Positions 552 to 30,267 are shown, counted from the stretch's first letter. The stretch: DNA of 64,000 nucleotides from Spirochaetes bacterium RBG_16_49_21 (GCA_001829495.1 MIBJ01000001.1:2414-66413); one strand, 5' to 3'. Translations and numbers: made by a program. Notes: generated by a model from the letters alone, not told the origin.

Positions 552-2471
552 ATGAAAGGCACTTTAGCGGAAAAGATACTAAAAGAACATCTTCTTGAAG
601 GCAGGCTTATTCCCGGAAAGGAGATCGGCATCCGCATAGACCAGTCCCTGACGCAGGATGCGACCGGCACCATGGTCTACCTTGAGTTTGAGTCGCTCAA
701 CATGAAGCGCGTGAACATAGAGCTGGCGGTAAGCTATATCGACCACAACATCATTCAGACCGATTACCGGAACGCAGACGATCACCGCTTTCTGCAGTCC
801 GCTGCCGCCAAATACGGGGTAATACTGTCGTCGGCCGGGAATGGTGTTTCGCATCACGTGCACCGCCAACGCTTCGGTATCCCCGGAAAAACGCTCCTCG
901 GCTCCGACAGCCACACCACCACCGGCGGGTGCCTCGGTATGCTGGCCATGGGATCAGGGGGGATCGAAGTCGCCATGGCCATGGCAGGAAAGCCCTACTA
1001 TATCAACACCCCCACCATCTGGGGAATCAGCGTGGAGGGGGAATTTCAGCCCTTCGTGTCTGGCAAGGACCTGATATTGAAACTCCTTGGTGACTATACG
1101 GCAAAGTCCGGCATCGGCAAGATTATGGAATTTTACGGACCGGGCGTGAAAAACATGGATATGGCTGCCCGCGCCACCATCGCCAACATGGCTGTGGATA
1201 TGGGATTCACCGCCTGCATCTTCCCCTCCGATGAAATAACGCGCGATTATTTGAAGAAAAATGACCGGCCTGGTGATTTCAGGCGGCTTGCTGCGAGAAA
1301 GAACGCAGTGTACGATGAAATAACTGAAATAAAATTGAACGATATCGAACCCATGGTTGCGTGCCCCAGCAACCCCGACAACGTGAAGCCGGCCCGGGAG
1401 CTCGGCGGAGTTGAGGTCCACCAGGTCATAGTCGGCTCGTCAACCAACGGGGATTTCAGGGACTTCATGATCGTGGCCAAGATGGTGGAAGGCAGTATGA
1501 AGCATTCGCAGGTGAGCTTTGAGATTAACCCGGGAAGTCGCGAGACACTGGATAACGTGCTCGCAGCCGGAGGTATAAAGCTCCTGGTTGAAGCAGGGGC
1601 CCGCGTTCACGAACCAGGGTGCCTGGGCTGCATAGGGATGGGCCAGGCGCCGGCTACAGGCACCAATTCACTCCGGACGTTCCCCAGGAATTTCAAAGGG
1701 CGGAGCGGCACCAAGGAGGACGCGGTCTATCTCTGCTCGCCCGAAACCGCTGCCGCATCGGCCCTGACCGGCAGGATCACCGACCCGCGAAGCATGAAAA
1801 ACTATCCATCCATTGCCTATCCAAGAAAATACGCCTATAATATGGCATGGTTTATCCAGCCATCGGCTAATCCAGATTCAGTGGAGATCATCAAGGGTCC
1901 CAACATAAAGCCTTTTCCGCAGTTTAACGCGCTGGAAGCGGATATTGAAGGCAAGGTTCTTCTTAAAGTGGGGGACAATGTCAGCACCGACATCATAATG
2001 CCGGCGGGTAACCGGGTATTGCCGTACCGGAGCAACATCCCGGCCATAAGCGAGTTCGTGTTCGATATTGTTGATGAAAATTTCGCCAAAAGGGCGAAAG
2101 AGTTAGGGAACGTGGTTATAATAGGCGGTGAGAATTACGGGCAGGGCTCGTCCCGCGAGCACGCGGCGCTTGCTCCCCGCTATCTGGGCGTGAGGGCCAA
2201 GATAGTAAAGAGCATCGCGCGGATTCACAAGTCCAATCTCATCAACTACGGCATTATCCCCCTGATCTTTAAAAATAAAAGTGATTACGACAGCATCATG
2301 CAGGAAAATACGATCAGGATACCCGGCATCAGAAAACTGATTGAACAGGGTAAAACCGAAATTCCCGTTGAGATTAACGGCAAAAGGATACTCACACTTC
2401 TGGATGTTTCCAATCGCCACCGGAAGATACTTCTGGCAGGCGGCATGTTGAATATGGCAAGGCAGGGATGA
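552..2471 (+). CDS. Aconitase-family hydro-lyase, a short (~640 aa) fused LeuC/LeuD-like aconitate hydratase
   Basis: Motifs GSDSHTTTGG, CLGCIG and a C-terminal swivel domain ENYGQGSSREHAA; the N-terminus is LeuC/aconitase-like. A good RBS lies upstream. Confidence 0.75.
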   Translation: MKGTLAEKILKEHLLEGRLIPGKEIGIRIDQSLTQDATGTMVYLEFESLNMKRVNIELAVSYIDHNIIQTDYRNADDHRFLQSAAAKYGVILSSAGNGVSHHVHRQRFGIPGKTLLGSDSHTTTGGCLGMLAMGSGGIEVAMAMAGKPYYINTPTIWGISVEGEFQPFVSGKDLILKLLGDYTAKSGIGKIMEFYGPGVKNMDMAARATIANMAVDMGFTACIFPSDEITRDYLKKNDRPGDFRRLAARKNAVYDEITEIKLNDIEPMVACPSNPDNVKPARELGGVEVHQVIVGSSTNGDFRDFMIVAKMVEGSMKHSQVSFEINPGSRETLDNVLAAGGIKLLVEAGARVHEPGCLGCIGMGQAPATGTNSLRTFPRNFKGRSGTKEDAVYLCSPETAAASALTGRITDPRSMKNYPSIAYPRKYAYNMAWFIQPSANPDSVEIIKGPNIKPFPQFNALEADIEGKVLLKVGDNVSTDIIMPAGNRVLPYRSNIPAISEFVFDIVDENFAKRAKELGNVVIIGGENYGQGSSREHAALAPRYLGVRAKIVKSIARIHKSNLINYGIIPLIFKNKSDYDSIMQENTIRIPGIRKLIEQGKTEIPVEINGKRILTLLDVSNRHRKILLAGGMLNMARQG

Positions 2472-2472
2472 C

Positions 2473-3420
2473 ATGGAGAAAGTGAGCATCATCGGCAGCG
2501 GCAATGTAGGGGCCAACACGGCCTTTTTCATAGCAGAGAAAGGGATTACCAACGTATACCTCTACGATATTCAGGACGGCATTTCCACAGGAAAGGCGCT
2601 GGATATGATGGAGGCCGCGCCTATACGTAAATACCGCAACTGCATAACCGGCATCGACGATATCAATGACATCAGGAATTCCGAATCGGTGATCATAGCT
2701 GCAGGCACGGCGTGCAGTGTGGGAATGAAGCAGGAAAAGCTGCTGGAGGAAAATTGGGAAACGGTCTCAAGAATCGTCGAAAAAATTGTACAGATCTCTC
2801 CGGAAAGCATTGTCATTGTGGCGACCGAACCGGTGGATTTCCTTACCACCTTGATTGCGCAGAAATTCTCCCTGCCCCGCAATAAACTTCTCGGCCTGGG
2901 GTGTATACTGGATGCCAGCCGGCTTAAGGCCGCCGTTTCCCGGGAGCTCTCCATCTCAGCGGAAAACATCACCGCCATGGTGATAGGACGGGATTCCGAC
3001 GACATGATCGTGGTGTCCGAGTACACGCGCGTATCGGGAATCCCTCTTGTTCAACTGATTCCGGAAGGAAAAATCAAGGCTTTAATACACGAGGTCAGAG
3101 AAGGGGGAAATCTCATAGCGGAGCTTTCAGAGTGCCCCGGCTCCTATTATACGCCCTCTGCCGCTGCCGCTGAGGTGATTGATGCCATTCATATGGATCT
3201 AAAGAGAATTTTGCCGGTATCGGTGGAGATGGAGGGCGAGTACGGAACGACCGGCGTCGCCATGTCGCTTCCCTGCGTTATCGGTAAAAACGGCGTGGAG
3301 AAGGTGCTCACCCCCATCTTGACGAAGGCGCAGCAGGACGCCCTGAAAAAGAGCGCAGAGGCCATTAAGGAAATTATAGCGGTTTATGGCGAGAGCAAAG
3401 CTCACATCCGAAAATCATGA
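2473..3420 (+). CDS. Divergent LDH/MDH-family paralog that lacks the canonical catalytic His and substrate Arg residues
   Basis: N-terminal Rossmann motif IIGSGNVGAN. It aligns colinearly with the neighbouring MDH, but GRDSD replaces GGHGD and TACSVGMKQ replaces VPRKPGMDR. Confidence 0.7.
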   Translation: MEKVSIIGSGNVGANTAFFIAEKGITNVYLYDIQDGISTGKALDMMEAAPIRKYRNCITGIDDINDIRNSESVIIAAGTACSVGMKQEKLLEENWETVSRIVEKIVQISPESIVIVATEPVDFLTTLIAQKFSLPRNKLLGLGCILDASRLKAAVSRELSISAENITAMVIGRDSDDMIVVSEYTRVSGIPLVQLIPEGKIKALIHEVREGGNLIAELSECPGSYYTPSAAAAEVIDAIHMDLKRILPVSVEMEGEYGTTGVAMSLPCVIGKNGVEKVLTPILTKAQQDALKKSAEAIKEIIAVYGESKAHIRKS

Positions 3421-3443
3421 AGATAACATTATTACTACTGAAG

Positions 3444-3563
3444 CCAACTCATCCCCCCGGCCCCCTTCTCTTTGGGAAAAGAGAAGGGGGTGGTCACTAT
3501 AAGCTCTTTATCACAATCCCCTCCTCTTTACGGAGTAGAGAGGGGGGCAGGGGGGTGAGTTGG
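3444..3563. repeat. GC-rich nested palindromic intergenic element (family CTCACCCC/CCCTCTCC...GGAGAGGG/GGGGTGAG), copy A
   Basis: Outer arms ccaactcatcccccc / ggggggtgagttgg. Inner hairpins cccccttctctttgggaaaagagaaggggg and cccctcctctttacggagtagagagggggg. Confidence 0.65.
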
Positions 3564-3565
3564 CC

Positions 3566-4516
3566 ATGAAAAAGGTAAGCGTGATCGGGGCCGGCAACGT
3601 GGGCGCAACGACAGTCTACTATATAGCGGAGAAGAATATCGCCGATATCGTCATGGTGGATGTTGCCGAGGGGCTGGCGCAGAAAAAGGCGCTGGATTTT
3701 CTGCACTCTGCCACGCTTCGAAGCTATAACATCAGTATCACCGGCACCAGCGATTACCGCGAGATACGGGACTCGGACGTGGTGGTCGTCACTGCCGGGG
3801 TACCCCGCAAGCCCGGCATGGACCGGATGGATCTCCTTAAAATCAATGTGGCAATTGTTACGGGCGCATCCCGGTATATTGCCGAATACTGTCCCGATGC
3901 GGTGGTGATCGTGGTCACCAATCCGCTGGACGTAATCGCCATGGTGGTGCTCAGGGAGACCGGTTTTGCCATAAAAAAGGTGGTGGGTATGGCCGGCGCT
4001 CTTGATTCCACCCGTTTCCGCTACTTCATCGCCGAAAAGCTGGGTGTATGGCCGGGCGATGTGATGGCGATGGTGTTGGGAGGGCATGGTGATGAGATGG
4101 TGCCGCTTAAAAATTACACCTCGGTGGGAGGCATTCCCCTGCCCCAGCTTCTGGATGATGATTCAATTGAAGGCATGATCCGGCGCACCCGCGACGGCGG
4201 CGGGGAGATCGTTAAATATCTTAAAACAGGGAGCGCCTTTTATGCGCCGGGCGCTTCCGTAGCCAAGATGGTGGAGTCAGTCATCAAAGACGAGAAGCGT
4301 CTTATGGCGGCCAGCGCTTATCTGCGGGGAGAGTATGGGTATCATAATATATTTTTAGGGGTGCCGGCGCTTCTGGGAAAGAACGGAATCGAGAAAATAA
4401 TTAATATTGAGCTCGCACCCGAGGAAAAGAAGGCCCTCGACGCCTCGGCCGAAGCGGTAAGAGAGGGAATCAGGATGCTGGAGAGCTTTTATGTGCCGGG
4501 GGGAGAAAGCCAATGA
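3566..4516 (+). CDS. mdh: Malate dehydrogenase, LDH-like MDH family
   Basis: Motifs VIGAGNVG, AGVPRKPGMDR, LDSTRFR, GGHGDEMVP. An ATG lies at 3566; the ORF track begins at an upstream TTG. The stop overlaps the sdhA start (ATGA). Confidence 0.85.
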   Translation: MKKVSVIGAGNVGATTVYYIAEKNIADIVMVDVAEGLAQKKALDFLHSATLRSYNISITGTSDYREIRDSDVVVVTAGVPRKPGMDRMDLLKINVAIVTGASRYIAEYCPDAVVIVVTNPLDVIAMVVLRETGFAIKKVVGMAGALDSTRFRYFIAEKLGVWPGDVMAMVLGGHGDEMVPLKNYTSVGGIPLPQLLDDDSIEGMIRRTRDGGGEIVKYLKTGSAFYAPGASVAKMVESVIKDEKRLMAASAYLRGEYGYHNIFLGVPALLGKNGIEKIINIELAPEEKKALDASAEAVREGIRMLESFYVPGGESQ

Positions 4517-6249
4517 AACATCACTATGAAGCGATAATCGTCGGCGCCGGGGGTGCCGGGCTTTACGCGGCCCTGGAGGCGAGTAAAACCGCTAAAACAG
4601 CCGTGCTGTCCAAACTTTATCCGGTCCGCAGCCATACCGGAACGGCCCAGGGAGGGATAGGGGCGGCCCTGGGAAACGTGGAGGAGGACCGGCCCGAGTG
4701 GCACGCCTTCGATACCATCAAGGGAGGCGATTACCTGACTGACCAGAAAGCGGCGCAGATACTGGTTGAGGAGGCGGTAGAAGCGGTGTACCATCTGGAA
4801 AACCTGGGACTTCCCTTCAGCAGAACAAGCGAGGGAAAAATCGACCAGCGCCGCTTCGGCGGTCACACCAGGAACTTCGGCGAGGCGCCGGTGAGACGAT
4901 CCTGCTATGCGGCAGACCGCACCGGCCATATGATCCTCCAGACCCTGTATCAGCAATGCATCAAGAACAAGGTCGCTTTTTTCGATGAATTTTTCGTGCT
5001 GGACGTGCTCATTGACGGAAAAAAGTGCAATGGCGTTGTGGCGATGGAGCTGGCCACCGGTGAAATACATACCTTTCAATCGAAAGCGGTCCTGTTCGCT
5101 ACCGGCGGGTTCGGCCGGATTTACCGGATCACCTCCAATGCTTACGCCAGTACCGGCGACGCCCCGGCGGTGCTGGCACGCGCCGGAGTACCCATGGAGG
5201 ACATGGAGTTCTTCCAGTTTCATCCCACCGGCATCTACGGCATGGGCATTCTCATCACCGAGGCGGTGCGGGGAGAGGGAGGAGTCCTCCTCAACCGTAA
5301 CGGCGACCGGCTCATGGAGGAATACGCCCCTGCACTGCTGGACCTTGCCCCACGGGACCTGATAAGCCGCGCCATCATCACCGAGATAAAGAAGGGTAAC
5401 GGCATACGGGGCGATAAAAAGATAGACGACTATGTGTATCTCGACGCCACCCGTATCGGGAAAGAGGTGATCGAGAAAAAACTGCCCGACATCGCCGGCT
5501 TCTGCCGCACCTACCTGGGAATCGACCCGGCGGAGAAGCCGATACCGGTGCAGCCCACTGCGCACTATGCCATGGGCGGTATCCCCACCGACATAATGGG
5601 GCGCGTTCTTGCGAGCGGCGGGGGCGATATATACGAGGGATTGTATGCCGCCGGAGAGTGCGCATGCATATCCGTGCATGGCGCAAATCGTCTGGGCACC
5701 AACAGCCTGGTGGACCTGATCGTGTACGGCAGAAGGGCCGGAGCGGAGATGGCGCGTTTCGTGAAGGAGGCTGATTTCGGCTCAATGCCGGCATCCGCTG
5801 ATGAACAGGCGCGAAAGAAGATCAATGCCCTCTTCACCGGAAAAAAGGGCAAATCCAGGGGCGATATTGCAACGAGGATGCAGGAAATCATGATGGAAAA
5901 GGTGGGCGTATTCCGCACCGGGGAAGAGATGAAAAGGGCGATTACGGATATACGCCGGATCAGGGAGGAATTCAACGATGTCCGCGTCGAGGATACCGGT
6001 AAAAGGTTTAATACCGAGCTGCTCGAGGTACTGGAGCTTGAAAACCTGCTGGATATCGCATACTTGACCGCTGTTGCTGCGAAGAACAGAACTGAGACGC
6101 GCGGAGCGCATTCGCGGATGGATTTTCCTGAAAGGGATGATAAGAAATGGCTAAAGCACAGCCTCATATGGCTCGATGGGGAGAAGTATAAAATAGGATA
6201 TAGAGATGTGGACATATCGCTGTATAAGCCGAAAGCGAGGACGTATTGA
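4513..6249 (+). CDS. sdhA: Succinate dehydrogenase / fumarate reductase flavoprotein subunit
   Basis: Motifs IVGAGGAGL, HTGTAQGGI, HYAMGGIPT and a C-terminal ETRGAHSR motif. Confidence 0.9.
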   Translation: MKHHYEAIIVGAGGAGLYAALEASKTAKTAVLSKLYPVRSHTGTAQGGIGAALGNVEEDRPEWHAFDTIKGGDYLTDQKAAQILVEEAVEAVYHLENLGLPFSRTSEGKIDQRRFGGHTRNFGEAPVRRSCYAADRTGHMILQTLYQQCIKNKVAFFDEFFVLDVLIDGKKCNGVVAMELATGEIHTFQSKAVLFATGGFGRIYRITSNAYASTGDAPAVLARAGVPMEDMEFFQFHPTGIYGMGILITEAVRGEGGVLLNRNGDRLMEEYAPALLDLAPRDLISRAIITEIKKGNGIRGDKKIDDYVYLDATRIGKEVIEKKLPDIAGFCRTYLGIDPAEKPIPVQPTAHYAMGGIPTDIMGRVLASGGGDIYEGLYAAGECACISVHGANRLGTNSLVDLIVYGRRAGAEMARFVKEADFGSMPASADEQARKKINALFTGKKGKSRGDIATRMQEIMMEKVGVFRTGEEMKRAITDIRRIREEFNDVRVEDTGKRFNTELLEVLELENLLDIAYLTAVAAKNRTETRGAHSRMDFPERDDKKWLKHSLIWLDGEKYKIGYRDVDISLYKPKARTY

Positions 6250-6363
6250 CCTCACCCCGCCTCCGGCGCGCCCTCTCCGACTCGGAGAGGGCTTCTCTGA
6301 TCGAAAGCCTTCTCCTACGAACTCCCCCTCTCCTTGAGGAGAGGGGGCCGGGGGGTGAGGTCA
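6247..6363. repeat. GC-rich nested palindromic element, copy B
   Basis: Outer arms tgacctcacccc ... ggggggtgaggtca. Inner hairpins ccctctccgactcggagaggg and ccccctctccttgaggagaggggg. Confidence 0.7.
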
Positions 6364-6375
6364 TAAGGAGCGATC

Positions 6376-7095
6376 ATGAAAATTACATTAAAAATCCAGC
6401 GTTTCAATAAAGAAAAGGATGAAAAGCCTTATTTCCAGGAATTCGAGCTGGAGGCCGAGCCTACAGACCGGCTCCTGGACGCGCTGATGTCTGTGGTAAC
6501 CAATCTGGACGGCTCCCTTGGCCTCCGGAAGAGCTGCGCTCACGGCATCTGCGGCTCTGACGCCATGGTGATCAACGGCATAGAGCGGCTGGCCTGCAAG
6601 ACTCTGATAAAGGACGTGGCTGATGATAATAATTCAGCGATCACCGTGGAGCCGTTGAGATGTATGCCGGTACAAAAGGACCTTATGGTGGACCAGGGCA
6701 GGTTCTTTGAAACCTACCGGGCAGTGAAGCCCTTTTTGATAAATGAGGAGCCGGCAGACGGGAAAGAACGCATTCAAACGCCAGAAGAGCGCTCCCGGTT
6801 CGACGACGCCACCAAGTGCATTCTCTGCGCAGCCTGCTATTCGTCATGCCCGGTCATTCAGGAGAAAAACCCGGCGTTCATCGGGCCCGCTGCCGTGGTC
6901 AATGCAGCCCGGTTCCTCTTCGACAGCCGCGACCGGGGCATGGAGGAGCGGCTTCCGGTGCTTAATGATGAGAACGGCGTATGGCCGTGCGAGAATCATT
7001 TCAACTGCACGCGGGTGTGCCCGCGCGACATCAAGGTTACGAAGAACATCAATTTAACGAAACGGGAAATCAAAAATTATAATGTTCAACAATAA
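6376..7095 (+). CDS. sdhB: Succinate dehydrogenase / fumarate reductase iron-sulfur subunit, E. coli SdhB-like with Asp in the 2Fe-2S motif
   Basis: CAHGICGSDAMVINGIERLAC (2Fe-2S) and CILCAACYSSCP (4Fe-4S) motifs. RBS taaggag upstream. Confidence 0.9.
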   Translation: MKITLKIQRFNKEKDEKPYFQEFELEAEPTDRLLDALMSVVTNLDGSLGLRKSCAHGICGSDAMVINGIERLACKTLIKDVADDNNSAITVEPLRCMPVQKDLMVDQGRFFETYRAVKPFLINEEPADGKERIQTPEERSRFDDATKCILCAACYSSCPVIQEKNPAFIGPAAVVNAARFLFDSRDRGMEERLPVLNDENGVWPCENHFNCTRVCPRDIKVTKNINLTKREIKNYNVQQ

Positions 7096-9793
7096 TTTCG
7101 ACTACATTGAAGAGCTTGTCACCGGTGAGAATGACATCGGAGAAATTCTGGAAAACAAACCCGAGCGTTTCGCGGTAACCCAAAAACGCGCGGTCCCGGT
7201 CGATGACCGGGTATTTAAACAGAGCCGCGTTGACAGCATGCTCTGGGCGTACCGCGATATCGGCTATCTTTACGCGAATGTGAATCCCCTGGGCGAAACC
7301 TACAACAGGGACTTTACGCGCCTGGTCGAATTTCAGGAGGAATCCTATCACAAGCTTTCCCTGGAGGAGTTCGGCCTGTCAGAGGCGGATCTCGAAACCG
7401 AGTTCTTCGGAGGAAAATTCATCGGCGACGGCATGCTGCCGCTGCGGGAGATACTCGCGCGGTTTACAGCGACGTACTGCTCCTCCGTGGGAGCGGAATT
7501 TCTGCACATCCAAAATAAGAACATCCGCGAATGGCTCATCGAGCGGATGGAATCCACCCGGAACGTCACCCGATTCTCCCCTGAACAGAAGCGGATAATC
7601 TTGAGCGATCTCATCAAGAGCGAGGAGCTCGAAAACATACTCCACCGGACATTCCTGGGGCAGACGCGCTTTTCCATCCAGGGTGCGGACGTGGTGATCC
7701 CGGCGCTCCACTTCCTGGTGGACAGCGCCCGTCGATTCAACATCGAAGAGATCGTCATGGGCACGAGCCACCGCGGAAGGCTCTCCATACTGAACGCGAT
7801 ATTAGAGCAGTCTCCGGAAGAGATCTTTTACCGCTTTGAAGAGAACTTCGTGCCGGGGATGCTCGGCGGCAGCGGCGATGTGCGGTACCATATCGGCTAC
7901 TGCACCCGGCATGTGAATGAGGACGGCACCTCAGTGAACATAACCCTCTTGCCCAATTCCAGCCATCTGGAATCGGTGGACGCCGTGGTCGAGGGCGATG
8001 TGCGCGGGTTGCAGGACTTAAGGAACGACGCTGAAAGAAAAAGAATCATACCGGTACTACTGCACGGAGACGCATCCTTCTCCGCGCAGGGCGTCGTAGC
8101 GGAAACCTTCAACCTCTCGCAGTTGGAGGGATACACCACCGGCGGTACCCTGCATATCGTGATCAACAATCAGATCGGTTTTACCACCTCCATGGTCGAA
8201 GGGCGCTCCGGCCTGAACCCCACGGACGTAGCCAAGATGATGCCGGTGCCTATCTTTCACGTAAACGGGGACGATCCGGAAGCGATGCTGCACATTATGC
8301 AGCTCGCCCTTGAATACCGGCAGAAATTCCATAGGGACGTTGTGGTGGATATCTATTCCTATCGAAGGTACGGACATAACGAGGGCGATGAGCCGTCTTT
8401 CACCCATCCCCGCATGTATGCCCTGATCAAAGATCATGAGAGCACGCTCTCGCTGTATGCCAAAAAATGCCTGAAAGAGGCCCTCATCACCGAGGATGAA
8501 ATAAAGGAGATGCGCGACAGGTATAAACAGGCGCTCGCTTCCGCGCTCAAAGAAGAGCGGGCGAAAAAGGGCGAAATCAAGGGCCCCACTCCGGAATCCG
8601 GTGGGATCGAAGAAAAAGAGATCGTCACCGCCTCGCCGGAGCCGCTCCTGCTTGAAATCGCGCAAAAAATAACAACCGCGCCGCCTGATTTTACCCTGCA
8701 CAGCCGCTTGAAAAGAATCATAGAAGGCAATTATAAAAAATTCAGGGAAGAAAAACGGGTGGACTGGGCCATGGCCGAGACCCTTGCCTTCGGTACGCTT
8801 CTCCTCGATGGCGTTCCGGTGCGCCTGAGCGGACAGGACAGCGTGCGCGGCACTTTTTCACAGCGCCACCTTGTCTGGTGGGAAACGGAAAAGGGGGCCC
8901 GCTACCATTATGTTCCGCTGGCCAATCTGACAAAGGATCAGGCCCGGCTGTCGGCCTACGACAGCCCCCTGTCTGAATATTCGGCGCTCGCTTTTGAATA
9001 CGGGTATGCGATCAGTCGTCCCGATTCCCTGGTTATATGGGAAGCCCAGTACGGCGATTTCGCAAACGGCAGCCAGGTGGTGATCGACTGCTACATCGTA
9101 TCCGGAAAATCGAAATGGAATATCGAGAACGGCCTCGTGCTCCTTCTGCCCCACGGATACGAAGGAATGGGAGCGGAGCACTCGAGCGGCCACCTGGAGC
9201 GCTTCCTGCAGCTCTGCTCGGAAGATAACATACGGGTCTGCAACGTGACCACACCGGCCCAGTATTTTCATCTGCTGCGCCGGCAGAAGAAGAACCGGAA
9301 CCAGAGGCCCCTTGTCATCATGACGCCCAAAAGCCTGCTCCGGCATCCGCGCTCCGTATCAACCCTGAATGAGTTAAGCAAAGGGGGCTTCCGGAGGATA
9401 CTCGATGATGTATCGAGCGAAGATATTCGACGCCTCCTTTTCTGTTCCGGAAAAATCTATTATGATCTTATAAATGAATTTAAGGAAGAGCATCGCGTAA
9501 CTACCGGCATAGTCCGCGTGGAGCAGCTTTACCCCTTCCCCAAAAAGGAGATAGAAGGGATACTGGATAAATACCGAAAGGTGAAGAGCCTTTACTGGGT
9601 TCAGGAGGAGCCGCGCAACCGCGGGGCATGGCGTTATATGCAGGAACAGTTTGAGCACTATTTTCCCGAATCGCATCTACTGTATATCGGAAGGGAGGCG
9701 AGCGCCAGCCCGGCAACCGGATCGCTGAAAAAGCACAACGAGGAACAGCAGACAATCGTGGCACGGGCGATAAAAGATTATGACAAAAATTAG
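7082..9793 (+). CDS. sucA: 2-oxoglutarate dehydrogenase E1 component
   Basis: 903 aa. Carries TPP-dependent E1 motifs (HRGRLSIL, GYxxxHNEGDEP) and SucA-like length. Confidence 0.9.
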   Translation: MFNNNFDYIEELVTGENDIGEILENKPERFAVTQKRAVPVDDRVFKQSRVDSMLWAYRDIGYLYANVNPLGETYNRDFTRLVEFQEESYHKLSLEEFGLSEADLETEFFGGKFIGDGMLPLREILARFTATYCSSVGAEFLHIQNKNIREWLIERMESTRNVTRFSPEQKRIILSDLIKSEELENILHRTFLGQTRFSIQGADVVIPALHFLVDSARRFNIEEIVMGTSHRGRLSILNAILEQSPEEIFYRFEENFVPGMLGGSGDVRYHIGYCTRHVNEDGTSVNITLLPNSSHLESVDAVVEGDVRGLQDLRNDAERKRIIPVLLHGDASFSAQGVVAETFNLSQLEGYTTGGTLHIVINNQIGFTTSMVEGRSGLNPTDVAKMMPVPIFHVNGDDPEAMLHIMQLALEYRQKFHRDVVVDIYSYRRYGHNEGDEPSFTHPRMYALIKDHESTLSLYAKKCLKEALITEDEIKEMRDRYKQALASALKEERAKKGEIKGPTPESGGIEEKEIVTASPEPLLLEIAQKITTAPPDFTLHSRLKRIIEGNYKKFREEKRVDWAMAETLAFGTLLLDGVPVRLSGQDSVRGTFSQRHLVWWETEKGARYHYVPLANLTKDQARLSAYDSPLSEYSALAFEYGYAISRPDSLVIWEAQYGDFANGSQVVIDCYIVSGKSKWNIENGLVLLLPHGYEGMGAEHSSGHLERFLQLCSEDNIRVCNVTTPAQYFHLLRRQKKNRNQRPLVIMTPKSLLRHPRSVSTLNELSKGGFRRILDDVSSEDIRRLLFCSGKIYYDLINEFKEEHRVTTGIVRVEQLYPFPKKEIEGILDKYRKVKSLYWVQEEPRNRGAWRYMQEQFEHYFPESHLLYIGREASASPATGSLKKHNEEQQTIVARAIKDYDKN

Positions 9794-9802
9794 GATACGG
9801 CA

Positions 9803-11056
9803 ATGAAAGAAGAGGTAAAAATACCGTCGGTAGGCGAATCCATAGTCGACGGGATGCTCATGGCATGGCTCAAGGAGAACGGCGATTACGTAAAGGAAAG
9901 CGAGGATCTTTATGAGTTTGAAACCGAAAAGGCCAGCGTCACGGTGCCCTCTCCCTTTGAAGGAATACTGGAGATTATCGTACCGGAAGGCACGAAGGTC
10001 GTGATAGGCCAGGTAGTGGCAACGATCGACACCGGCGCCGCGGTTGAAACAGCCGCAAAGGAAAAGGAGCCTGATTTAAGAACGCCAAAGCCCGTCTCCG
10101 CGCCTGAAAAAAAGGCGAAGACGGAAAAGAAGGCCGCGGGGGAAGGAAAAAAAGAGCCCGAAACCCTGTCTCCGGCGGTGCGCCGGATTCTCGAAGAGCA
10201 TGACATCGACCTCACCGGTGTGGCGGGCACGGGAAAGGACGGCAGGATCACCAAGGGCGACGTGCTCGCGGGAATCGAGCAAAAGCCTGAAGAAAAAACG
10301 TTTGAGGAAAAGAAACAGGAAGAACGGCCCGGCGCCGGTGAGATGCGCGCTGATGAGACATCGGTAAAAAGGGTTGCAATGTCCTACTTCCGCAAATCCA
10401 TTGCCCGGCGCATGCTCTCCGCCCGGCAGGAAGCCGCGCATCTTACCACCTTCAATGAAATCAACATGGAAAAACTCATCGAGATGCGAAAGGCACACCA
10501 GGAGCCCTTTCAAAAAAAATACGGCATTAAACTGGGATTTATGTCCTTTTTTGTAAAGGCCTCTGTGGAAGCCCTCAAAGAGTTTCCCGTCATAAACGCC
10601 CGGATAGAGGGCGATGACATCGTGTATTATAATTTTTACGATATCGGCGTTGCGGTATCGACCGACCGGGGGCTTCTGGTTCCCGTTATACGAAACGCAG
10701 ATGCGCTTACCTTCGCCGGAATAGAGAAAAAAATCGCCGACCTGGCCCAGCGAGCAAAAGATAAAAAGATAACCCTGCCGGAGCTCCTGGGGGGAACCTT
10801 TTCGATCACCAACGGCGGAATATTCGGTTCGCTCATGTCCACGCCCATACCGAATCATCCCCAACCGGCAATACTGGGCATGCATGCAATCCAGGAGCGG
10901 CCGGTGGCGATACAGGGCGAAGTGAAGATCAAGCCCATGATGTACGTGGCGGTATCCTACGATCACCGCCTGATAGACGGCAGGGAGGCGGTAAGCTTTC
11001 TGTTCCGTATTAAGGAACATATTGAAGACCCGGAAGAGATGTTATTGAATATCTAA
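9803..11056 (+). CDS. sucB: Dihydrolipoamide succinyltransferase E2
   Basis: N-terminal lipoyl domain (EFETEKASV), Ala/Pro/Lys-rich linkers, and a catalytic domain with DHRLIDG. Confidence 0.9.
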
Positions 11057-11090
11057 GGAAAGGAAGGTAGTGTACCACTTTAACTTAAAG

Positions 11091-11227
11091 TTTGTCATTG
11101 CGAGGAACGCAGTGACGAAGCAATCTGCAAATGGTTTATATACTCAATTATGACACAGAAAATACTTATGAATCATGAATTTCATGAAATAAAATGCAGA
11201 TTGCTTCGCTTTGCTCGCAATGACAAA
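11091..11227. repeat. Imperfect palindromic intergenic element, family 'GTCATTGCGAGGAGCGCAGCGACGAAGCAATC' (copy 1)
   Basis: Left arm tttgtcattgcgaggaacgcagtgacgaagcaatctgca and right arm tgcagattgcttcgctttgctcgcaatgacaaa are inverted complements around an AT-rich core. Confidence 0.7.
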
Positions 11228-11268
11228 ATATCTATGTCTAATTGACTCACGACCGAAAGGAGGACTGA

Positions 11269-12702
11269 ATGCAGGATAACCTCACGTTTGATCTGATCGT
11301 CATCGGTGCGGGCCCGGGGGGGTACACCGCAGCCATCCGGGCATCGCAGCTCGGACTGAAAACCGCCATCATTGAAAAAAGGGCCACACTCGGGGGGACC
11401 TGCGTCAACGTGGGCTGTATCCCGGCAAAAGCCCTGCTGGATACGACGGAATTATTCTCAACGATCAGGGATAAAGCGAACCGCCACGGCATCCTTTTCG
11501 ATAATTTGCGATTCGATCTTGCCGCGGCCATGAAAAAGAAAAACGAAGCGGTGGAGAGGTTTACCAAGGGCGTTGCGCTGCTCATGCGGGAAAACAGGAT
11601 TGAAACATTCTTCGGGAGCGCGCGTCTGGCGTCTTCGCAGGTGGTGAAGGTGAAAACTGCAAAAAAGGAAGAATTATCCCTGCAGGGATCGAAGATCATT
11701 ATTGCCACCGGCAGTGTTCCCGTCGAGCTCCCCTCCATGCCCTTCGATGGAGAGCATATCGTCAGCTCCGACGACGCGTTATCCTTTGATGCCGTGCCGG
11801 AAAGCCTGATAGTTATCGGTGCGGGCGCCGTGGGACTGGAATTGGCGAGCATATGGATGCGGCTGGGCTCCACGGTGACCGTTATTGAGCTTATGGATCA
11901 GATCCTTCCCGGCATGGATCAACAGATATGCAGGTCGCTCATGCAGATATTAAAAAAAGAGGGAATGGAGTTTTCTCTCTCCACCAGGATAGCGGCGCAT
12001 TCCATAAAAAAGGATACGGTCGAGCTGAAGGGAACAAACGGCAAAGGCAAAGAGCTGACGTTCCGGGGGAACAAGGTGCTTGTTGCCGTGGGCAGGAAAG
12101 CATATTGTGCGGATTTGGGATTGGAGATTCTGAATATTGAATTGACGGAAAAGGGAAAGATAAAGATAAATAAAAGCTATGAAACCGCGAATCCGGGCGT
12201 GTACGCCATCGGCGATATCACCGAAGGGCCGATGCTCGCCCATAAGGCGGGGGAAGAGGGGATAGCCGCGGCGGAGCTGATTGCGGGGAAAGCGGGGCAT
12301 GTTAATTACGACACAATTCCGAGCGTAGTGTATACCTGGCCGGAGGTGGCTTCCGTGGGAACGACGGAGGATCAGTGCACATCGGGGAATATCCCCTTTA
12401 ACAGGGGGATCTTCTATTTCAGGGCCAACGGACGCAGCATCACCTCCGATAACCTGGACGGCTTTGTAAAAATTATCGCGCATAAGGAGACCGACAGAAT
12501 TCTCGGCTGCTCTATTTTAGGCCCCTGGGCATCGGACCTCATCACGGAGATAGTTTCGGTCATGGAATTCGGCGGAAGCTCTGAAGATGTTGCGCGCACC
12601 ATGCATGCCCATCCCACCCTGTGTGAGGTTGTCAAGGAGGCGGCCCTGGATGTGGAGAGGCGCGCGATTCATTCCCCGCCGGGAATGAATCTGGGACGAT
12701 AG
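11269..12702 (+). CDS. lpdA: Dihydrolipoyl dehydrogenase E3
   Basis: Motifs GAGPGGY, GGTCVNVGCIP (redox disulfide) and HAHPTL near the C-terminus. Confidence 0.9.
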   Translation: MQDNLTFDLIVIGAGPGGYTAAIRASQLGLKTAIIEKRATLGGTCVNVGCIPAKALLDTTELFSTIRDKANRHGILFDNLRFDLAAAMKKKNEAVERFTKGVALLMRENRIETFFGSARLASSQVVKVKTAKKEELSLQGSKIIIATGSVPVELPSMPFDGEHIVSSDDALSFDAVPESLIVIGAGAVGLELASIWMRLGSTVTVIELMDQILPGMDQQICRSLMQILKKEGMEFSLSTRIAAHSIKKDTVELKGTNGKGKELTFRGNKVLVAVGRKAYCADLGLEILNIELTEKGKIKINKSYETANPGVYAIGDITEGPMLAHKAGEEGIAAAELIAGKAGHVNYDTIPSVVYTWPEVASVGTTEDQCTSGNIPFNRGIFYFRANGRSITSDNLDGFVKIIAHKETDRILGCSILGPWASDLITEIVSVMEFGGSSEDVARTMHAHPTLCEVVKEAALDVERRAIHSPPGMNLGR

Positions 12703-12733
12703 AGGGCTAACTTCTATCCACATCTCACACGTT

Positions 12734-12762
12734 GGCCCCCTAAATCCCCCGGAGGGGGACTT
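12734..12762. repeat. Hairpin motif CCCCTAAATCCCCCGGAGGGGGACTT, a single copy downstream of lpdA
   Basis: Exact motif; tcccccggaggggga is a self-complementary stem-loop. Confidence 0.6.
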
Positions 12763-12868
12763 AAAAGCTTGTCAAATGAGCATGGTAAGTGATAAACATG
12801 TACCATTGTCTCCTTTGGGAGTATGTCGAGCCGATCGGCTGAGTTACCGGTGAACATAAGCCCCCCTC

Positions 12869-13075
12869 TGGGCTAACAACTACCCACAAGTGTGTAAGCA
12901 AGGGGGATAAGAAGATAGAAGAGATGATAGAGATACATTTTTAACGGAATATTGTTAAAATTGAAGAGGAAAAACAATCATTTAAGCTCAAAAAATAAAA
13001 TTATCTCTGATATCTCTTCAATTCCCCTATTCCCTGTTCTTACACATGGAGATGTGGGTAGTTGTTAGCCCTCTG
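12869..13075. repeat. Long imperfect inverted repeat (~37-44 bp arms) around a ~125 bp AT-rich spacer, upstream of citrate synthase
   Basis: Arms gggctaacaactacccacaagtgtgtaagcaaggg (12869-) and ccctgttcttacacatggagatgtgggtagttgttagccc (13032-13075). A third related half-site lies at 12703-12735. Confidence 0.55.
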
Positions 13076-13161
13076 GGGGGTTTGGGGGGCATGAGAGAAG
13101 GAAATAGGTAGAAATTAGGCGGTAGAGGGCGGGGCCAAACATCATAAGGAGGACATTGAAT

Positions 13162-14304
13162 ATGGAACAACCGACTTTCTCAAAAGGATTGGAAGGCGTT
13201 GTTGCCGCATCAAGCGATATATGCAACATAGACGGCAACGCAGGAAAGCTGTATTACCGGGGATATTCAATAGAAGACCTGGCGCGGCATTCCTCCTTCG
13301 AAGAGGTTACCTTTTTGTTGCTGAATGAGCATTTGCCTACAAAAACAGAGCTTGAAGACTTTCAGGGAAAAATGCGCAAAAGCAGGGCCCTCAACCCTGA
13401 GATTCGGGAGATGATCAGGAATTTCCCTGCCGAGGGGAAACCGATGGAGCTCTTACAGGCGGTCATATCCTATCTGAGCGGCTATGTGGAGCACAAGATC
13501 CAGCATTCCGCCTTCTGCGATTGCCGCATAACCCTGCACCAGGTGGTCCAGCTTGCCAGCGTCGTGGCCACATACCAGAGGCTTAAAGAAGGGAAGGAGT
13601 ATGTGGAGCCGGACCCGACCCTGTCGCACGGCGGGAATTTTCTCTATATGATGCGCGGGAAAAAGCCCGAGGATTACGAGGACCGGATCATGGACGTCTG
13701 CCTTCTCCTGCACGCGGAACACGGCTTCAATGCTTCCACCTTTACCGCGCGCGTCGTCGCCTCGACCGTCTCTACCTGCTACAGCAGCATCTCGGCCGCC
13801 ATCGGCGCGCTCTCCGGCCCGCTTCACGGCGGAGCCAATGAAGAGGTGCTGAAGATGCTTGATAAGATCGGCTCCGTTAAAAAGGTGGACGGGTGGTTCG
13901 CAAAAGCCATTGAAAATAAGCAGAAAATCATGGGCTACGGACACCGGGTATATAAGACAAAGGATCCGCGCGCCGTCATTATAGAAGGATTCTTAAAGGA
14001 GCTGTCAGAGAAAAAAAACGATTTCAGAGATTACGATATTCTAAAAAAGCTGGAGGCGAAGGCTCTCGAGGTTCTGAGCACGAAGGATAATCCGGTGTAT
14101 CCTAACGTTGATTTTTTTTCCGGCTCGGTATTCAAGCTTCTCGGCATTCCCCCGTATCTGTTTACCCCAATATTCGCAATCGGCAGGGTTCCCGGATGGC
14201 TTGCGCATATTCTGGAACAGCGCAAGGATAACCGGCTCTACCGGCCGAAGAGCCTGTACCACGGGCCTGATCCGAGACCGTATGTACTGACTGAGGATCG
14301 GTAG
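13162..14304 (+). CDS. Citrate synthase, short (~380 aa) type
   Basis: Typical citrate synthase N-terminus and HGGAN / GYGHRVYK motifs. An ATG at 13162 has an aggagg RBS; the ORF track starts at a TTG two codons upstream. Confidence 0.85.
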   Translation: MEQPTFSKGLEGVVAASSDICNIDGNAGKLYYRGYSIEDLARHSSFEEVTFLLLNEHLPTKTELEDFQGKMRKSRALNPEIREMIRNFPAEGKPMELLQAVISYLSGYVEHKIQHSAFCDCRITLHQVVQLASVVATYQRLKEGKEYVEPDPTLSHGGNFLYMMRGKKPEDYEDRIMDVCLLLHAEHGFNASTFTARVVASTVSTCYSSISAAIGALSGPLHGGANEEVLKMLDKIGSVKKVDGWFAKAIENKQKIMGYGHRVYKTKDPRAVIIEGFLKELSEKKNDFRDYDILKKLEAKALEVLSTKDNPVYPNVDFFSGSVFKLLGIPPYLFTPIFAIGRVPGWLAHILEQRKDNRLYRPKSLYHGPDPRPYVLTEDR

Positions 14305-18243: not shown

Positions 18244-19206
18244 CCGGGGTACTGATGCCGACGGCAGGGGGGATGATTCATAACGGGATTCCAGAGCCTG
18301 CACGATCTTCATGATCGCGTCGTTAACAGGGCACTTAACGCCGAGCCTCGCCCCTTCCCGGACTATGGCGCCGTTGATGAAATCAATCTCGGTACGCCTC
18401 CCCTGCTTTATATCCTGATGCATTGACGAGTAATTGGCTGCAGTAAGCCTGCACACCTCTTCCACACGCGCTACCGGGTCATCGTATGCCGCCTTCAATT
18501 CCTTGCGCAGCAGCACCTCCCATCCCTCCAGCACGAGCTCCTTCATGAGCTCGCGCGCCGGCTCGAGTTCAAGGAGAGCTCCGTTCCGCACCTGGAGTAT
18601 CGCGGTGAGGGGATTGATGCCGGCATTGACGAGCACCTTGCCCCACACCAGCGACTCCGGTTCAGTGCTCAGCTCAACATCAAGGCCGGCGCTTCCCATG
18701 AGCTTGGCCAGCTCTTCAAGAAAGCCCCGGCCCGGACTGCCGGCAGTTATGGGGCCAAAGGCTGTTTTTCCCCTTCCCGCGTGGCGGACATGGTTCACAT
18801 CCGCCAGGTTGGCGCCCTCGGAAGTTATACCGGCGATAAGGGAAGAGCCGGGCAGGTTCCGGCTGATGATCTCCACGTTGCCCACGCCGTTTTGCAGGGT
18901 CAGCACCGGACCGCGGTACCCGGCCTGGTGCAGTTCCCGGGTGGCATCATCCGTGCTGTAGGCCTTGACGCAGAGAATTACCAAATCCGTGTTTTCCGGA
19001 TATTTCAGGCCTACCGTGACCGGTACCATAAAGCTGAAATCCGCATTCATCCCTTGCCAGCGGATCCCCTTTTTATTCATCAAATCAGCCCGATCAGCCA
19101 GGTGGTCCACCAGCGTAAGATTCACCCCTGTTCTTTGCAAATATCCTGCCAAAAGCAATCCCATGGCTCCCGGCCCAACGATCGCTATGTTCATAGCTCT
19201 TACCAT
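18238..19206 (-). CDS. panE: 2-dehydropantoate 2-reductase (ketopantoate reductase)
   Basis: N-terminal NAD(P) fold IAIVGPGAMG, the characteristic central Lys/Asn/Glu region and an ApbA C-terminal domain. Confidence 0.75.
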   Translation of the reverse strand: MVRAMNIAIVGPGAMGLLLAGYLQRTGVNLTLVDHLADRADLMNKKGIRWQGMNADFSFMVPVTVGLKYPENTDLVILCVKAYSTDDATRELHQAGYRGPVLTLQNGVGNVEIISRNLPGSSLIAGITSEGANLADVNHVRHAGRGKTAFGPITAGSPGRGFLEELAKLMGSAGLDVELSTEPESLVWGKVLVNAGINPLTAILQVRNGALLELEPARELMKELVLEGWEVLLRKELKAAYDDPVARVEEVCRLTAANYSSMHQDIKQGRRTEIDFINGAIVREGARLGVKCPVNDAIMKIVQALESRYESSPLPSASVPRS

Positions 19207-19224
19207 CTCTCTGAAATAATAGTG

Positions 19225-19842
19225 TCACTCTCGTGTGACCCGGCGATTATAACCCGCTTGAGCGTGGTCTCCCGATTTTACCGCCTGCACGCCAAACTCA
19301 TACGCCCGTTTCAGATCACCGGGATTATTCAGAACATCCCCTCTCCCTTCGGCCTTGAAAAATATCCCTCCCTCGTAGGACTTGTCCAGGGAATCAAAAA
19401 AATATTTCGCCGTCAGCTCTCCTCCGGTGAAAAGATTCACCCCCTTTGTGGCTCCCACCATGACGAGGTATCCCCTACCCCCCTCGTGGCGCTTGCGCTC
19501 TTCGGCCGACTTCATGATCATTCTCCGCGACCAGAGCGCCTGGCACCGGTCGATGAACGCCTTCAACTGGGAGCTCATGCCGTAAAAAAAGACGGGCGAC
19601 GAAAGAAAAATGATGTGCGAATCTATGAGCTTTGGGTAGACCGATTGCATGTCGTCCGGCGTTACGCATCGGCCCGTGTCCCTGCAGCCGCCGCATTCAA
19701 CGCATCCCTTAAAATTCAAATCACGCACGTATATCCGCGACGCTACTGCTCCCGCGGAAGCGGCGCCGTCAAGCACCCGGTCCAGGATAGTATCGCTGTT
19801 ACCTCCCTTCCGCGGGCTGCCGTATATTCCCAATACATTCAT
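19225..19842 (-). CDS. Iron-sulfur flavoprotein / NADPH-dependent FMN reductase family
   Basis: Flavodoxin-like N-terminus LGIYGSPRKGGNS plus a Cys cluster CVECGGCRDTGRC. The start was chosen at an internal Met because the annotated 5' extension runs into a repeat. Confidence 0.7.
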   Translation of the reverse strand: MNVLGIYGSPRKGGNSDTILDRVLDGAASAGAVASRIYVRDLNFKGCVECGGCRDTGRCVTPDDMQSVYPKLIDSHIIFLSSPVFFYGMSSQLKAFIDRCQALWSRRMIMKSAEERKRHEGGRGYLVMVGATKGVNLFTGGELTAKYFFDSLDKSYEGGIFFKAEGRGDVLNNPGDLKRAYEFGVQAVKSGDHAQAGYNRRVTRE

Positions 19843-19860
19843 GGCGTAACCGCCCATTAA

Positions 19861-28796: not shown

Positions 28797-28798
28797 AG

Positions 28799-30264: not shown

Positions 30265-30267
30265 GTT

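What the first reader, a model, noticed from the sequence alone, without database searches (positions are those of the whole stretch)
2473..3420. Tandem LDH/MDH paralog missing the catalytic His and both substrate-binding Arg residues (possible pseudo-enzyme)
Two LDH/MDH-family genes sit back-to-back between aconitase and sdhA. The second is a textbook MDH (AGVPRKPGMDR, GGHGDEMVP). The first aligns to it residue-for-residue, but it has TACSVGMKQ where the Arg102/Arg109 loop should be, and GRDSD where the proton-relay His195 motif GGHGD should be (His to Asp). The Rossmann fold and the R171-equivalent (LDASRLK) persist. An MDH fold lacking His195 cannot perform normal hydride-transfer catalysis. 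It may act as a regulatory or binding subunit, or as an enzyme with altered chemistry, and it is co-transcribed with TCA genes.
Basis: seen in the sequence. Interest (0 to 1): 0.55.

Follow-up and report, generated by a model that had tools for sequence, protein, structure and literature searches.

The report
Catalytically dead malate dehydrogenase partner gene
This gene encodes a well-folded copy of malate dehydrogenase that has lost its catalytic residues but is still kept by selection, and it belongs to a previously undescribed gene family that always sits directly upstream of a normal malate dehydrogenase, so it most likely acts as a non-catalytic partner of that enzyme.

Summary
ORF 2473-3420 (315 aa) is an intact LDH/MDH-fold protein. 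It aligns without gaps (35% identity) to the canonical MDH downstream and has Arg102->Cys, Arg109->Gln and His195->Asp. It is not a one-off decay product. It belongs to a large clade marked by Glu140 and Arg194 (161 unique members examined) found in Spirochaetota, Desulfobacteraceae and other phyla. In 45 of 45 testable loci the clade's gene lies immediately upstream of a canonical MDH, mostly overlapping it by 4-8 nt. Most members keep all catalytic residues. Losses are frequent in this clade (Arg102 28x, Arg109 22x, His195 8x) and absent from 159 partner or solitary MDHs. The NAD-binding glycines, Asp53 and Arg171 are never lost. His->Asp arose about three times independently. dN/dS among the His-less proteins is 0.11-0.17. 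The AlphaFold model is confident (pLDDT 92.6). Best reading, from sequence analysis only: a selected, NAD(H)-binding, non-catalytic partner or regulatory subunit of the adjacent MDH. No physical complex has been shown. I found no published description. Cultured carriers of the intact form exist (Desulfobacula toluolica Tol2 'Mdh2').

The parts
2473..3420 (+). Glu140-type MDH paralogue (315 aa) that lacks catalytic His195, Arg102 and Arg109; this is the finding itself
2494..2511 (+). NAD-binding GSGNVG (G8-G13). Together with Asp32 (equivalent to Asp53, 2566-2568) it is conserved in 100% of 161 clade members
   Evidence: invariant columns
2707..2733 (+). Former substrate-specificity loop TACSVGMKQ: Cys81 (2713-2715) replaces Arg102 and Gln87 (2731-2733) replaces Arg109
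2821..2838 (+). ATEPVD: Glu119 (2827-2829) replaces Asn140; this is the family signature, present in 158/161 members
2911..2922 (+). DASR: Asp147 (= Asp168) and Arg150 (= Arg171) are retained; Arg171 is invariant in the clade
2986..3000 (+). GRDSD: Arg173 (Gly194->Arg, the second family signature) and Asp174 (His195->Asp, codon GAT 2992-2994)
3421..3565 (+). Structured intergenic spacer. The outer stem 3443-3458/3549-3564 pairs with the Shine-Dalgarno region of mdh, and there are two inner hairpins (3461-3490 is a perfect 13-bp stem). It replaces the 4-nt gene overlap seen in most relatives
3566..4516 (+). Canonical NAD-MDH with all catalytic residues, the obligate downstream partner. The ORF listing starts it at TTG 3560; ATG 3566 fits homologues better
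   Evidence: (TIGR01763 398.6 bits, cutoff 351.85)
552..2471 (+). Aconitase; its stop codon lies 1 nt before the start of the odd gene
4513..14304 (+). Rest of the TCA cluster: sdhA, sdhB, sucA, sucB, lpd, gltA

Best explanation
The ORF encodes a folded, NAD(H)-binding member of the tetrameric LDH-like MDH fold that can no longer carry out malate/oxaloacetate or lactate/pyruvate hydride transfer. It lacks the general acid/base His195, the transition-state Arg109 and the specificity Arg102. It belongs to an old paralogue family (Glu140, Arg194) that arose by tandem duplication of an MDH and has since travelled as a two-gene cassette with a canonical MDH. The most likely mechanism is that the two products assemble into a hetero-oligomeric MDH, a dimer-of-dimers scaffold. 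The canonical subunit does the chemistry. The Glu140 subunit contributes structure and/or regulation through its retained dinucleotide site and Arg171 carboxylate site. Because its own catalysis is dispensable, catalytic residues have been lost repeatedly; the query is the most degenerate case. SHOWN: residue losses, family membership, obligate synteny, purifying selection, about 2-fold faster evolution concentrated at catalytic elements, strict retention of NAD-binding residues and Arg171, and a confident fold. INFERRED: absence of activity, physical association with the MDH, and a regulatory role.
For: (1) Synteny: 45/45 testable loci with a Glu/Asp140 gene have a canonical MDH immediately downstream, across Spirochaetota, Desulfobacteraceae, Edwardsbacteria and Krumholzibacteriia. 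121 loci matched through a canonical MDH have a single gene. MDH is the only universally conserved neighbour. (2) Spacing in loci with intact copies is -8 to +29 nt, mostly 4- or 8-nt overlaps, which implies translational coupling. (3) Catalytic residues are lost only in the Glu140 copy (Arg102 28/161, Arg109 22/161, Asp168 9/161, His195 8/161) and never in 38 partner or 121 solitary MDHs. GxGxxG, Asp53 and Arg171 are 100% retained. (4) His195 losses are independent: two His->Asp events in the query's sub-clade (codons GAT versus GAC; bootstraps 100 and 69), plus P0122 (Asp), P0124 (Tyr) and P0162 (Gln). (5) dN/dS is 0.11-0.17 among the His-less genes, versus 0.04-0.12 for partners. The query's terminal branch is not elongated. 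(6) In 36 genome-matched pairs the Glu140 copy is more variable overall (1.50 versus 0.88 bits), most of all at the substrate loop and the His motif. It is more conserved than its partner at GxGxxG and residues 41-56. (7) Distances in the two copies co-vary (r=0.88). The copies share derived residues that solitary MDHs lack (Arg at Q2-54: 99-100% versus 0%; Tyr at Q2-56; an aromatic pair at 20/21). (8) AF2 gives pLDDT 92.6, with TM 0.91-0.94 to tetrameric MDHs. (9) The roles of Arg102, Arg109, Asp168, Arg171, His195 and Asn140 are taken from PMC4109310.
Against: There is no direct evidence of a complex, and I could not run a multimer prediction. Co-variation of distances is expected for any two genes in the same genomes. 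In the query's own sub-group the tight coupling to mdh has been lost: the gap is 90-152 nt and the spacer hides the mdh ribosome-binding site, while the gene abuts aconitase with a 1-nt gap. This weakens the case for an obligate 1:1 complex in this lineage. Intact family members have a strongly constrained, charge-compensated active site (Asn140Glu/Gly194Arg; Gly/Ala237Asp/Glu238Leu; first-shell entropy 0.33 versus 1.34 bits, P<1e-4). The family therefore probably began as an active enzyme, possibly with its own substrate. Deep nodes of my NJ tree are poorly supported (bootstraps 25, 56 and 3).
Confidence: 0.5

Rival explanations
1. It is a stand-alone enzyme with altered chemistry or a new substrate. 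The Cys102 sub-clade would have rebuilt the pocket (Cys102, Gly245, Ala240) and would use other residues (Cys81, Asp174, Glu119) for catalysis on a different substrate.
For: Cys102, Gly245 and Ala240 are fixed in 17-18 of 18 sub-clade members, and Arg171, Leu112 and Pro250 are invariant. His was replaced by Asp in 3 of 5 independent events (P=0.023 under uniform one-step substitution). NAD-site residues are invariant. Purifying selection is strong.
Against: First-shell constraint in the sub-clade is not significantly above the protein average (0.65 versus 0.91 bits, P=0.085), whereas it is very strong in intact members. Positions 109 and 237 are highly variable in the sub-clade. No LDH/MDH-family enzyme is known to work without His195; all catalytic residues are conserved even in divergent clades (PMC4109310). 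This reading does not explain the obligate pairing with MDH.
Confidence: 0.2
2. It is a non-catalytic NAD(H)- or carboxylate-binding protein that acts without binding MDH, for example as a redox or metabolite sensor, or as a partner of aconitase or another TCA enzyme.
For: NAD-binding residues and Arg171 are retained. In the query's sub-group the gene starts 1 nt after the aconitase stop and is uncoupled from mdh.
Against: Aconitase adjacency is confined to Spirochaete loci. In Desulfobacteraceae and other phyla the cassette has no TCA neighbours, and only the MDH is constant. No DNA-binding or signalling domain is present.
Confidence: 0.15
3. It is a non-functional relic, a recently inactivated MDH copy drifting towards loss.
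For: Three key catalytic residues are gone. The query has the most first-shell changes of any member examined. Pocket constraint is relaxed.
Against: dN/dS is 0.11-0.17, including within the Asp195 clade whose common ancestor already lacked His (bootstrap 100). Full-length ORFs are intact in all lineages. The terminal branch is not lengthened. NAD-binding motifs are invariant. The model is confident.
Confidence: 0.07
4. It is a sequencing or assembly artefact.
For: The source is a metagenome-assembled genome.
Against: Identical DNA was recovered from two other samples. The same substitutions occur in relatives at 70-75% identity.
Confidence: 0.01

Closest known systems
Tetrameric LDH-like malate dehydrogenase (MalDH type 3), e.g. 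Thermaerobacter marianensis 7AOB, Geobacillus 7BY8, Chloroflexus 1UXG
   Same: Same two Pfam domains. Gapless alignment at 31-37% identity, TM 0.91-0.94. GxGxxG, Asp53, Asp168 and Arg171 are retained.
   Different: It lacks His195, Arg102, Arg109 and Asn140. It scores below the TIGR01763 equivalog cutoff (276 versus 351.85). No solved structure has Glu140 or Arg194.
Regulatory subunits of hetero-oligomeric NAD-isocitrate dehydrogenase (yeast Idh1, mammalian IDH3 beta/gamma); comparison from general knowledge
   Same: A paralogue of a TCA-cycle dehydrogenase that retains ligand binding at a degenerate active site while the sister subunit catalyses.
   Different: Different fold (Iso_dh) and eukaryotic. 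Heteromer formation is proven there and only inferred here.
Pseudoenzyme activators ('prozymes') of trypanosomatid AdoMetDC and deoxyhypusine synthase; from general knowledge
   Same: A catalytically dead paralogue maintained by selection because it partners the active paralogue.
   Different: Unrelated folds. Here the dead state is a recurrent derived condition inside a family whose other members look catalytically competent.
Desulfobacula toluolica Tol2 'Mdh2' (P0361) and Desulfotignum phosphitoxidans Mdh (P0272)
   Same: Same Glu140/Arg194 family and the same cassette with a canonical MDH downstream.
   Different: They keep Arg102, Arg109, Asp168 and His195. They are only about 45-47% identical to the query and are not in a TCA cluster.

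Membership tests
LDH/MDH superfamily (Pfam PF00056 + PF02866) | Both domains score above the gathering threshold | tested here: met
   91.9 and 75.5 bits against cutoffs of 27 and 22.6
LDH/MDH superfamily | Rossmann GxGxxG plus an acidic residue at position 53 for NAD | tested here: met
   GSGNVG and Asp32 are present; both are 100% conserved in the clade
L-malate dehydrogenase, MalDH type 3 (EC 1.1.1.37) | Catalytic His195 | tested here: not met
   Asp174, codon GAT
L-malate dehydrogenase, MalDH type 3 | Arg102 (C4-carboxylate specificity) and Arg109 (transition state) | tested here: not met
   Cys81 and Gln87
L-malate dehydrogenase, MalDH type 3 | Asp168 and Arg171 | tested here: met
   Asp147 and Arg150
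L-malate dehydrogenase, MalDH type 3 | Asn140 in the first shell | tested here: not met
   Glu119; canonical MDHs have Asn in 100% of cases
L-malate dehydrogenase, MalDH type 3 | NCBIfam equivalog TIGR01763 score at or above the cutoff | tested here: not met
   276.4 versus 351.85. It passes only the broad PRK06223 subfamily model (295.9 versus 283)
L-malate dehydrogenase, MalDH type 3 | Oxaloacetate reductase activity | not testable with these tools
   Needs an enzyme assay
L-lactate dehydrogenase | Gln102, His195, and TIGR01771 at or above the cutoff | tested here: not met
   Cys at 102 and Asp at 195; 198.7 versus 303.55 bits
Glu140/Arg194 MDH-paralogue clade (undescribed; defined here) | Glu at 140 and Arg at 194 | tested here: met
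   ATEPVD and GRDSD. The clade has Glu in 158/161 and Arg in 140/161 members
Glu140/Arg194 MDH-paralogue clade | Located immediately upstream of a canonical MDH on the same strand | tested here: met
   True in the window and in 45/45 testable loci
Glu140/Arg194 MDH-paralogue clade | Groups with the clade in a tree | tested here: met
   NJ clade contains all 144 Glu140 sequences, but bootstrap support is only 25. The nearest homologues at 50-81% identity all carry the signature
Pseudoenzyme | Homologue of an active enzyme that lacks essential catalytic residues | tested here: met
Pseudoenzyme | Maintained by purifying selection | tested here: met
   dN/dS 0.11-0.17
Pseudoenzyme | Experimentally inactive | not testable with these tools
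   Needs purified protein
Hetero-oligomeric enzyme subunit | Physical complex with the partner | not testable with these tools
   Only genomic coupling, co-variation and shared derived residues are available
Family 4 glycoside hydrolase (LDH-like fold, NAD+/Mn2+) | PF02056 match | tested here: not met
   The query has no hit; the partner MDH has only a weak hit

The most novel reading that the evidence does not exclude
The Cys102 sub-clade, including this His-less protein, is not dead. It has acquired new chemistry or a new ligand on the MDH scaffold: a thiol on the mobile active-site loop next to the nicotinamide, with Asp195/Glu140 acting as the base (a Cys + carboxylate + NAD arrangement like that of aldehyde dehydrogenases). 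The convergent His->Asp replacements would then be adaptive rather than degenerative.
Probability: 0.07. Interest if true: 0.85.

Novelty: new variant of a known kind. Interest (0 to 1): 0.6.

Why it matters
Bacterial MDH is treated as a textbook homo-oligomer. If true, this would show a conserved two-gene MDH cassette spread across several phyla, in which one paralogue repeatedly and convergently gives up catalysis while keeping its nucleotide site. That would be a bacterial counterpart of the catalytic-plus-regulatory subunit design of eukaryotic NAD-isocitrate dehydrogenase. It would also be a natural series of stages in the birth of a pseudoenzyme: intact, then Arg102Cys, then His195Asp. 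It is directly testable, because intact cassettes exist in cultured Desulfobacula toluolica and Desulfotignum phosphitoxidans. In practical terms, databases name these proteins 'malate dehydrogenase'. For the query and its relatives that name is almost certainly wrong, and it inflates MDH counts in metabolic reconstructions.

Tried and rejected
(1) Missing isocitrate dehydrogenase. No Iso_dh gene occurs in the window or in any cassette-bearing cluster, so I considered that the Glu140 protein might replace IDH. I rejected this. Natural isocitrate has the D (2R) configuration at the carbinol carbon and LDH/MDH-fold enzymes are L-specific (established stereochemistry). The extra acidic residues are unfavourable for a tricarboxylate. 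The query has no acid/base residue. Whether icd lies elsewhere in the genome could not be checked.
(2) Fusion proteins as evidence of interaction. P0222 is a tandem of two canonical LDH-like domains, and P0134 looks like a chimeric gene call. Neither is informative.
(3) Rfam search of the spacer gave only sub-threshold miRNA-hairpin noise. Spacers in relatives are not homologous.
(4) The metagenome-contig scan with the query returned few close relatives. I obtained DNA for close relatives through the look-up of encoding contigs instead.
(5) The deep NJ topology (the Glu140 clade as sister to the partner MDHs) has negligible bootstrap support. I rely on shared derived residues instead.
(6) The pocket-conservation test in the Cys102 sub-clade was not significant (P=0.085). 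It supports neither a fully dead site nor a fully functional one.
(7) Literature searches for a bacterial MDH pseudoenzyme, a heteromeric MDH, a Glu140 variant, or Desulfobacula Mdh2 found nothing relevant. The library lacks most subscription-journal papers, so absence there is weak evidence.

Full report
OBSERVATION. The window carries a TCA cluster on the + strand: fumC (3' end, 13-354), aconitase (552-2471), the ORF in question (2473-3420), a canonical MDH (3560/3566-4516), sdhA, sdhB, sucA, sucB, lpd and gltA. The 315-aa ORF matches both LDH/MDH Pfam domains. It aligns to the downstream MDH over 300 residues with no gaps at 35% identity. In LDH numbering, confirmed against solved MDHs 7aob and 7by8, it has Arg102->Cys81, Arg109->Gln87, Asn140->Glu119, Gly194->Arg173 and His195->Asp174. 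Asp168, Arg171, the GxGxxG motif and Asp53 are retained. Boucher et al. (PMC4109310) list Arg102, Arg109, Asn140, Asp168, Arg171 and His195 among the first-shell residues. They also note that Arg109, Asp168, Arg171 and His195 are conserved even in divergent clades of the superfamily. The protein passes only NCBI's broad PRK06223 model and fails the MDH and LDH equivalog cutoffs, whereas its neighbour passes the MDH equivalog. The identical protein is a 'hypothetical protein' of Spirochaetes bacterium RBG_16_49_21. Identical DNA occurs on contigs from two further samples, so this is not an assembly artefact.

IT BELONGS TO A FAMILY. All 120 best homologues (50-81% identity, much closer than the 35% to the in-genome MDH) carry ATEPVD-type Glu140, and nearly all carry Arg194 (G-R-H-S-D). 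The exhaustive representative search extends the family to roughly 35% identity. Most members keep Arg102, Arg109, Asp168, Arg171 and His195. Only the query's nearest relatives have Cys102, and only a handful lack His195.

OBLIGATE PAIRING WITH A CANONICAL MDH. I examined 171 loci from genomes and metagenomes. In 45 of them a Glu/Asp140 gene is followed immediately, on the same strand, by a canonical Asn140 MDH. The only three Glu140 genes without a partner sit at contig ends. 121 loci recovered through a canonical MDH have one MDH gene only (Fisher p about 1e-40, not phylogenetically corrected). Carriers include Spirochaetota, Desulfobacteraceae (Desulfotignum, Desulfobacula), Candidatus Edwardsbacteria and Krumholzibacteriia. 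The MDH is the only universally conserved neighbour. In Desulfobacteraceae the cassette lies outside any TCA cluster. In loci with intact copies the spacing is -8 to +29 nt, usually a 4- or 8-nt overlap. The two copies share derived residues that solitary MDHs almost never have: Arg at Q2 position 54 (99-100% versus 0%), Tyr at 56, an aromatic pair at 20/21, and Thr151. This supports a single ancestral tandem duplication. My NJ tree recovers each group as a clade, and the two as sisters, but with weak bootstrap support (25, 56 and 3).

ASYMMETRIC CONSTRAINT. Among 161 unique Glu140 proteins the NAD-binding glycines, Asp53 and Arg171 are never lost. Arg102 is lost in 28, Arg109 in 22, Asp168 in 9 and His195 in 8. 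None of these residues is lost in 38 partner or 121 solitary MDHs. In 36 genome-matched pairs the Glu140 copy evolves about twice as fast (Kimura distance ratio 1.98), and distances in the two copies co-vary (r=0.88). Its excess variability peaks at the substrate loop (+1.22 bits) and the His motif (+1.18 bits). It is more conserved than its partner only at GxGxxG and residues 41-56 (KALDMMEAAPIRKYRN). Intact family members have a very strongly constrained first shell (0.33 versus 1.34 bits, P<1e-4) that is remodelled in a charge-compensated way (Asn140Glu with Gly194Arg; Gly/Ala237Asp with Glu238Leu). The ancestral Glu140 protein was therefore probably an active dehydrogenase.

THE DEGENERATE LINEAGE. 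Arg102->Cys arose once, at the base of a Spirochaete sub-clade. Within that sub-clade, L169/L001/L170 form a 100%-supported Asp195 clade (codon GAC). The query (codon GAT) groups at 69% support with His-bearing sequences that use CAT. Two independent His->Asp events are therefore more parsimonious than one loss plus reversals. P0122 (His->Asp plus Asp168->His), P0124 (His->Tyr) and P0162 (His->Gln) are further independent losses. Three Asp outcomes among five events is mildly non-random (P=0.023). dN/dS among the His-less genes is 0.11-0.17, including pairs inside the clade whose ancestor already lacked His; partner MDHs give 0.04-0.12. The query's terminal branch is not elongated. In the Cys102 sub-clade, first-shell constraint is largely relaxed (0.65 versus 0.91 bits, P=0.085), although Cys102, Gly245 and Ala240 are fixed. 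The AlphaFold model built on the family alignment is confident (pLDDT 92.6, pTM 0.91), dipping only at the former substrate loop and at the 211-230 lid. It superposes on tetrameric MDHs at TM 0.91-0.94.

A COMPLICATION. In the query's immediate group (WIN, L001, L168, L169 and, allowing for an apparent homopolymer sequencing error, L170) the gene starts 1 nt after the aconitase stop. Where the sequence extends far enough, it is separated from mdh by 90-152 nt of non-homologous spacer. In the window the spacer folds very stably (-78.6 kcal/mol, z=-6.8), and its outer stem pairs with the mdh Shine-Dalgarno region. So the stoichiometric coupling to MDH seen in the rest of the family is not enforced here.

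INTERPRETATION. The evidence excludes an artefact and makes a decaying pseudogene unlikely. On established enzymology it almost certainly excludes ordinary MDH or LDH catalysis by this protein. My preferred reading (confidence about 0.5) is a non-catalytic, NAD(H)-binding partner or regulatory subunit of the adjacent MDH. The supporting pattern is: always paired with an MDH, usually translationally coupled, co-inherited, catalysis repeatedly dispensable, and the nucleotide site and Arg171 never dispensable. The analogy is the regulatory subunits of NAD-isocitrate dehydrogenase, or the trypanosomatid prozymes (general knowledge). Three alternatives remain open: a neofunctionalised enzyme using Cys102/Asp195 (0.2), an MDH-independent binding protein (0.15), or a relic (0.07). 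No complex, ligand binding or activity has been measured. All of these can be tested with synthetic genes and, for the intact form, in cultured Desulfobacula toluolica Tol2 ('Mdh2', L172) or Desulfotignum phosphitoxidans.

NOVELTY. I found no description of a Glu140-type MDH paralogue, a bacterial heteromeric MDH, or an MDH pseudoenzyme in the searchable literature, and no solved structure of the family. I rate it a new variant of a known kind: a pseudoenzyme or paralogous-subunit arrangement inside a very well known superfamily.

Noticed in passing
window 3421-3565: The 145-nt spacer between the odd gene and mdh folds into a three-helix structure (-78.6 kcal/mol, z=-6.8). Its outer stem (3443-3458 with 3549-3564) sequesters the mdh Shine-Dalgarno region GGGGGGUGAG. 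It contains a perfect 13-bp hairpin at 3461-3490. It is unique in the window, has no Rfam family, and is not conserved in relatives' spacers.
   Followed up: partly
window 2469-2475; L001, L168, L169, L170: In the query's sub-group the odd gene starts 1 nt after the aconitase stop (TGAcATG / TAAaATG) while being uncoupled from mdh. In other Spirochaete loci the acn gap is 8-152 nt and the mdh overlap is 4 nt. Translational coupling appears to have switched from the downstream to the upstream neighbour.
   Followed up: partly
whole window 1-64000: No isocitrate dehydrogenase (Iso_dh) gene occurs in 64 kb, although nearly every other TCA enzyme is encoded, several of them twice: fumC (13-354) plus a class I fumarase (54413-55841); sdhAB without a membrane anchor (4513-7095) plus a flavoprotein with a cytochrome b subunit (51585-54338); the OGDH complex (7082-12702) plus a 2-oxoacid:ferredoxin oxidoreductase (40927-42753); sucCD (57334-59393); malic enzyme (55867-57321); gltA (13156-14304). 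Cassette-bearing clusters in relatives also lack icd.
   Followed up: partly
L170 versus L171: The partner MDH genes of these two loci are close (pS 0.26), but their Glu140 genes are far apart (pS 0.60). The discordant divergence within the cassette suggests recombination or replacement of one gene.
   Followed up: no
L025 150-1103; L044 5995-6924: Cassette copies from Candidatus Edwardsbacteria and an unclassified bacterium have Glu140 but keep Gly194 (GGHHD). They are 46-48% identical to the canonical MDH. They may be early-branching intermediates of the family.
   Followed up: no
L170 about 884-965: The start of the Glu140 gene is disrupted by an apparent one-base error in an A-run (ATGGAAAAATAAGC, where ATGGAAAAAATAAGC is expected). 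The gene caller therefore truncated the protein (P0012, 280 aa). P0010 (295 aa) is also an N-terminally truncated call.
   Followed up: partly
window 18781-19860, 20665-21288, 40141-40824, 43259-44614 (+): Four sizeable ORFs (359, 207, 227 and 451 aa) have no Pfam match at E<=1e-5 (the first also none at 1e-3).
   Followed up: no
window 28266-38248 (-): This is a cluster combining a molybdopterin oxidoreductase (formate-dehydrogenase-like, 36236-38248), a 4Fe-4S protein, an NAD-binding/DHODB Fe-S protein, a fused Complex1 30kDa+49kDa / NiFe-hydrogenase-like subunit (30268-31950), NADH-dehydrogenase subunit H-like and antiporter-like subunits. It resembles a formate-hydrogenlyase or group-4 hydrogenase-like complex.
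   Followed up: no
window 4513-4516: The sdhA start (ATG 4513) overlaps the mdh stop (4514-4516) by 4 nt, so mdh and sdhA are themselves translationally coupled. This sdhAB pair has no adjacent membrane-anchor genes.
   Followed up: no
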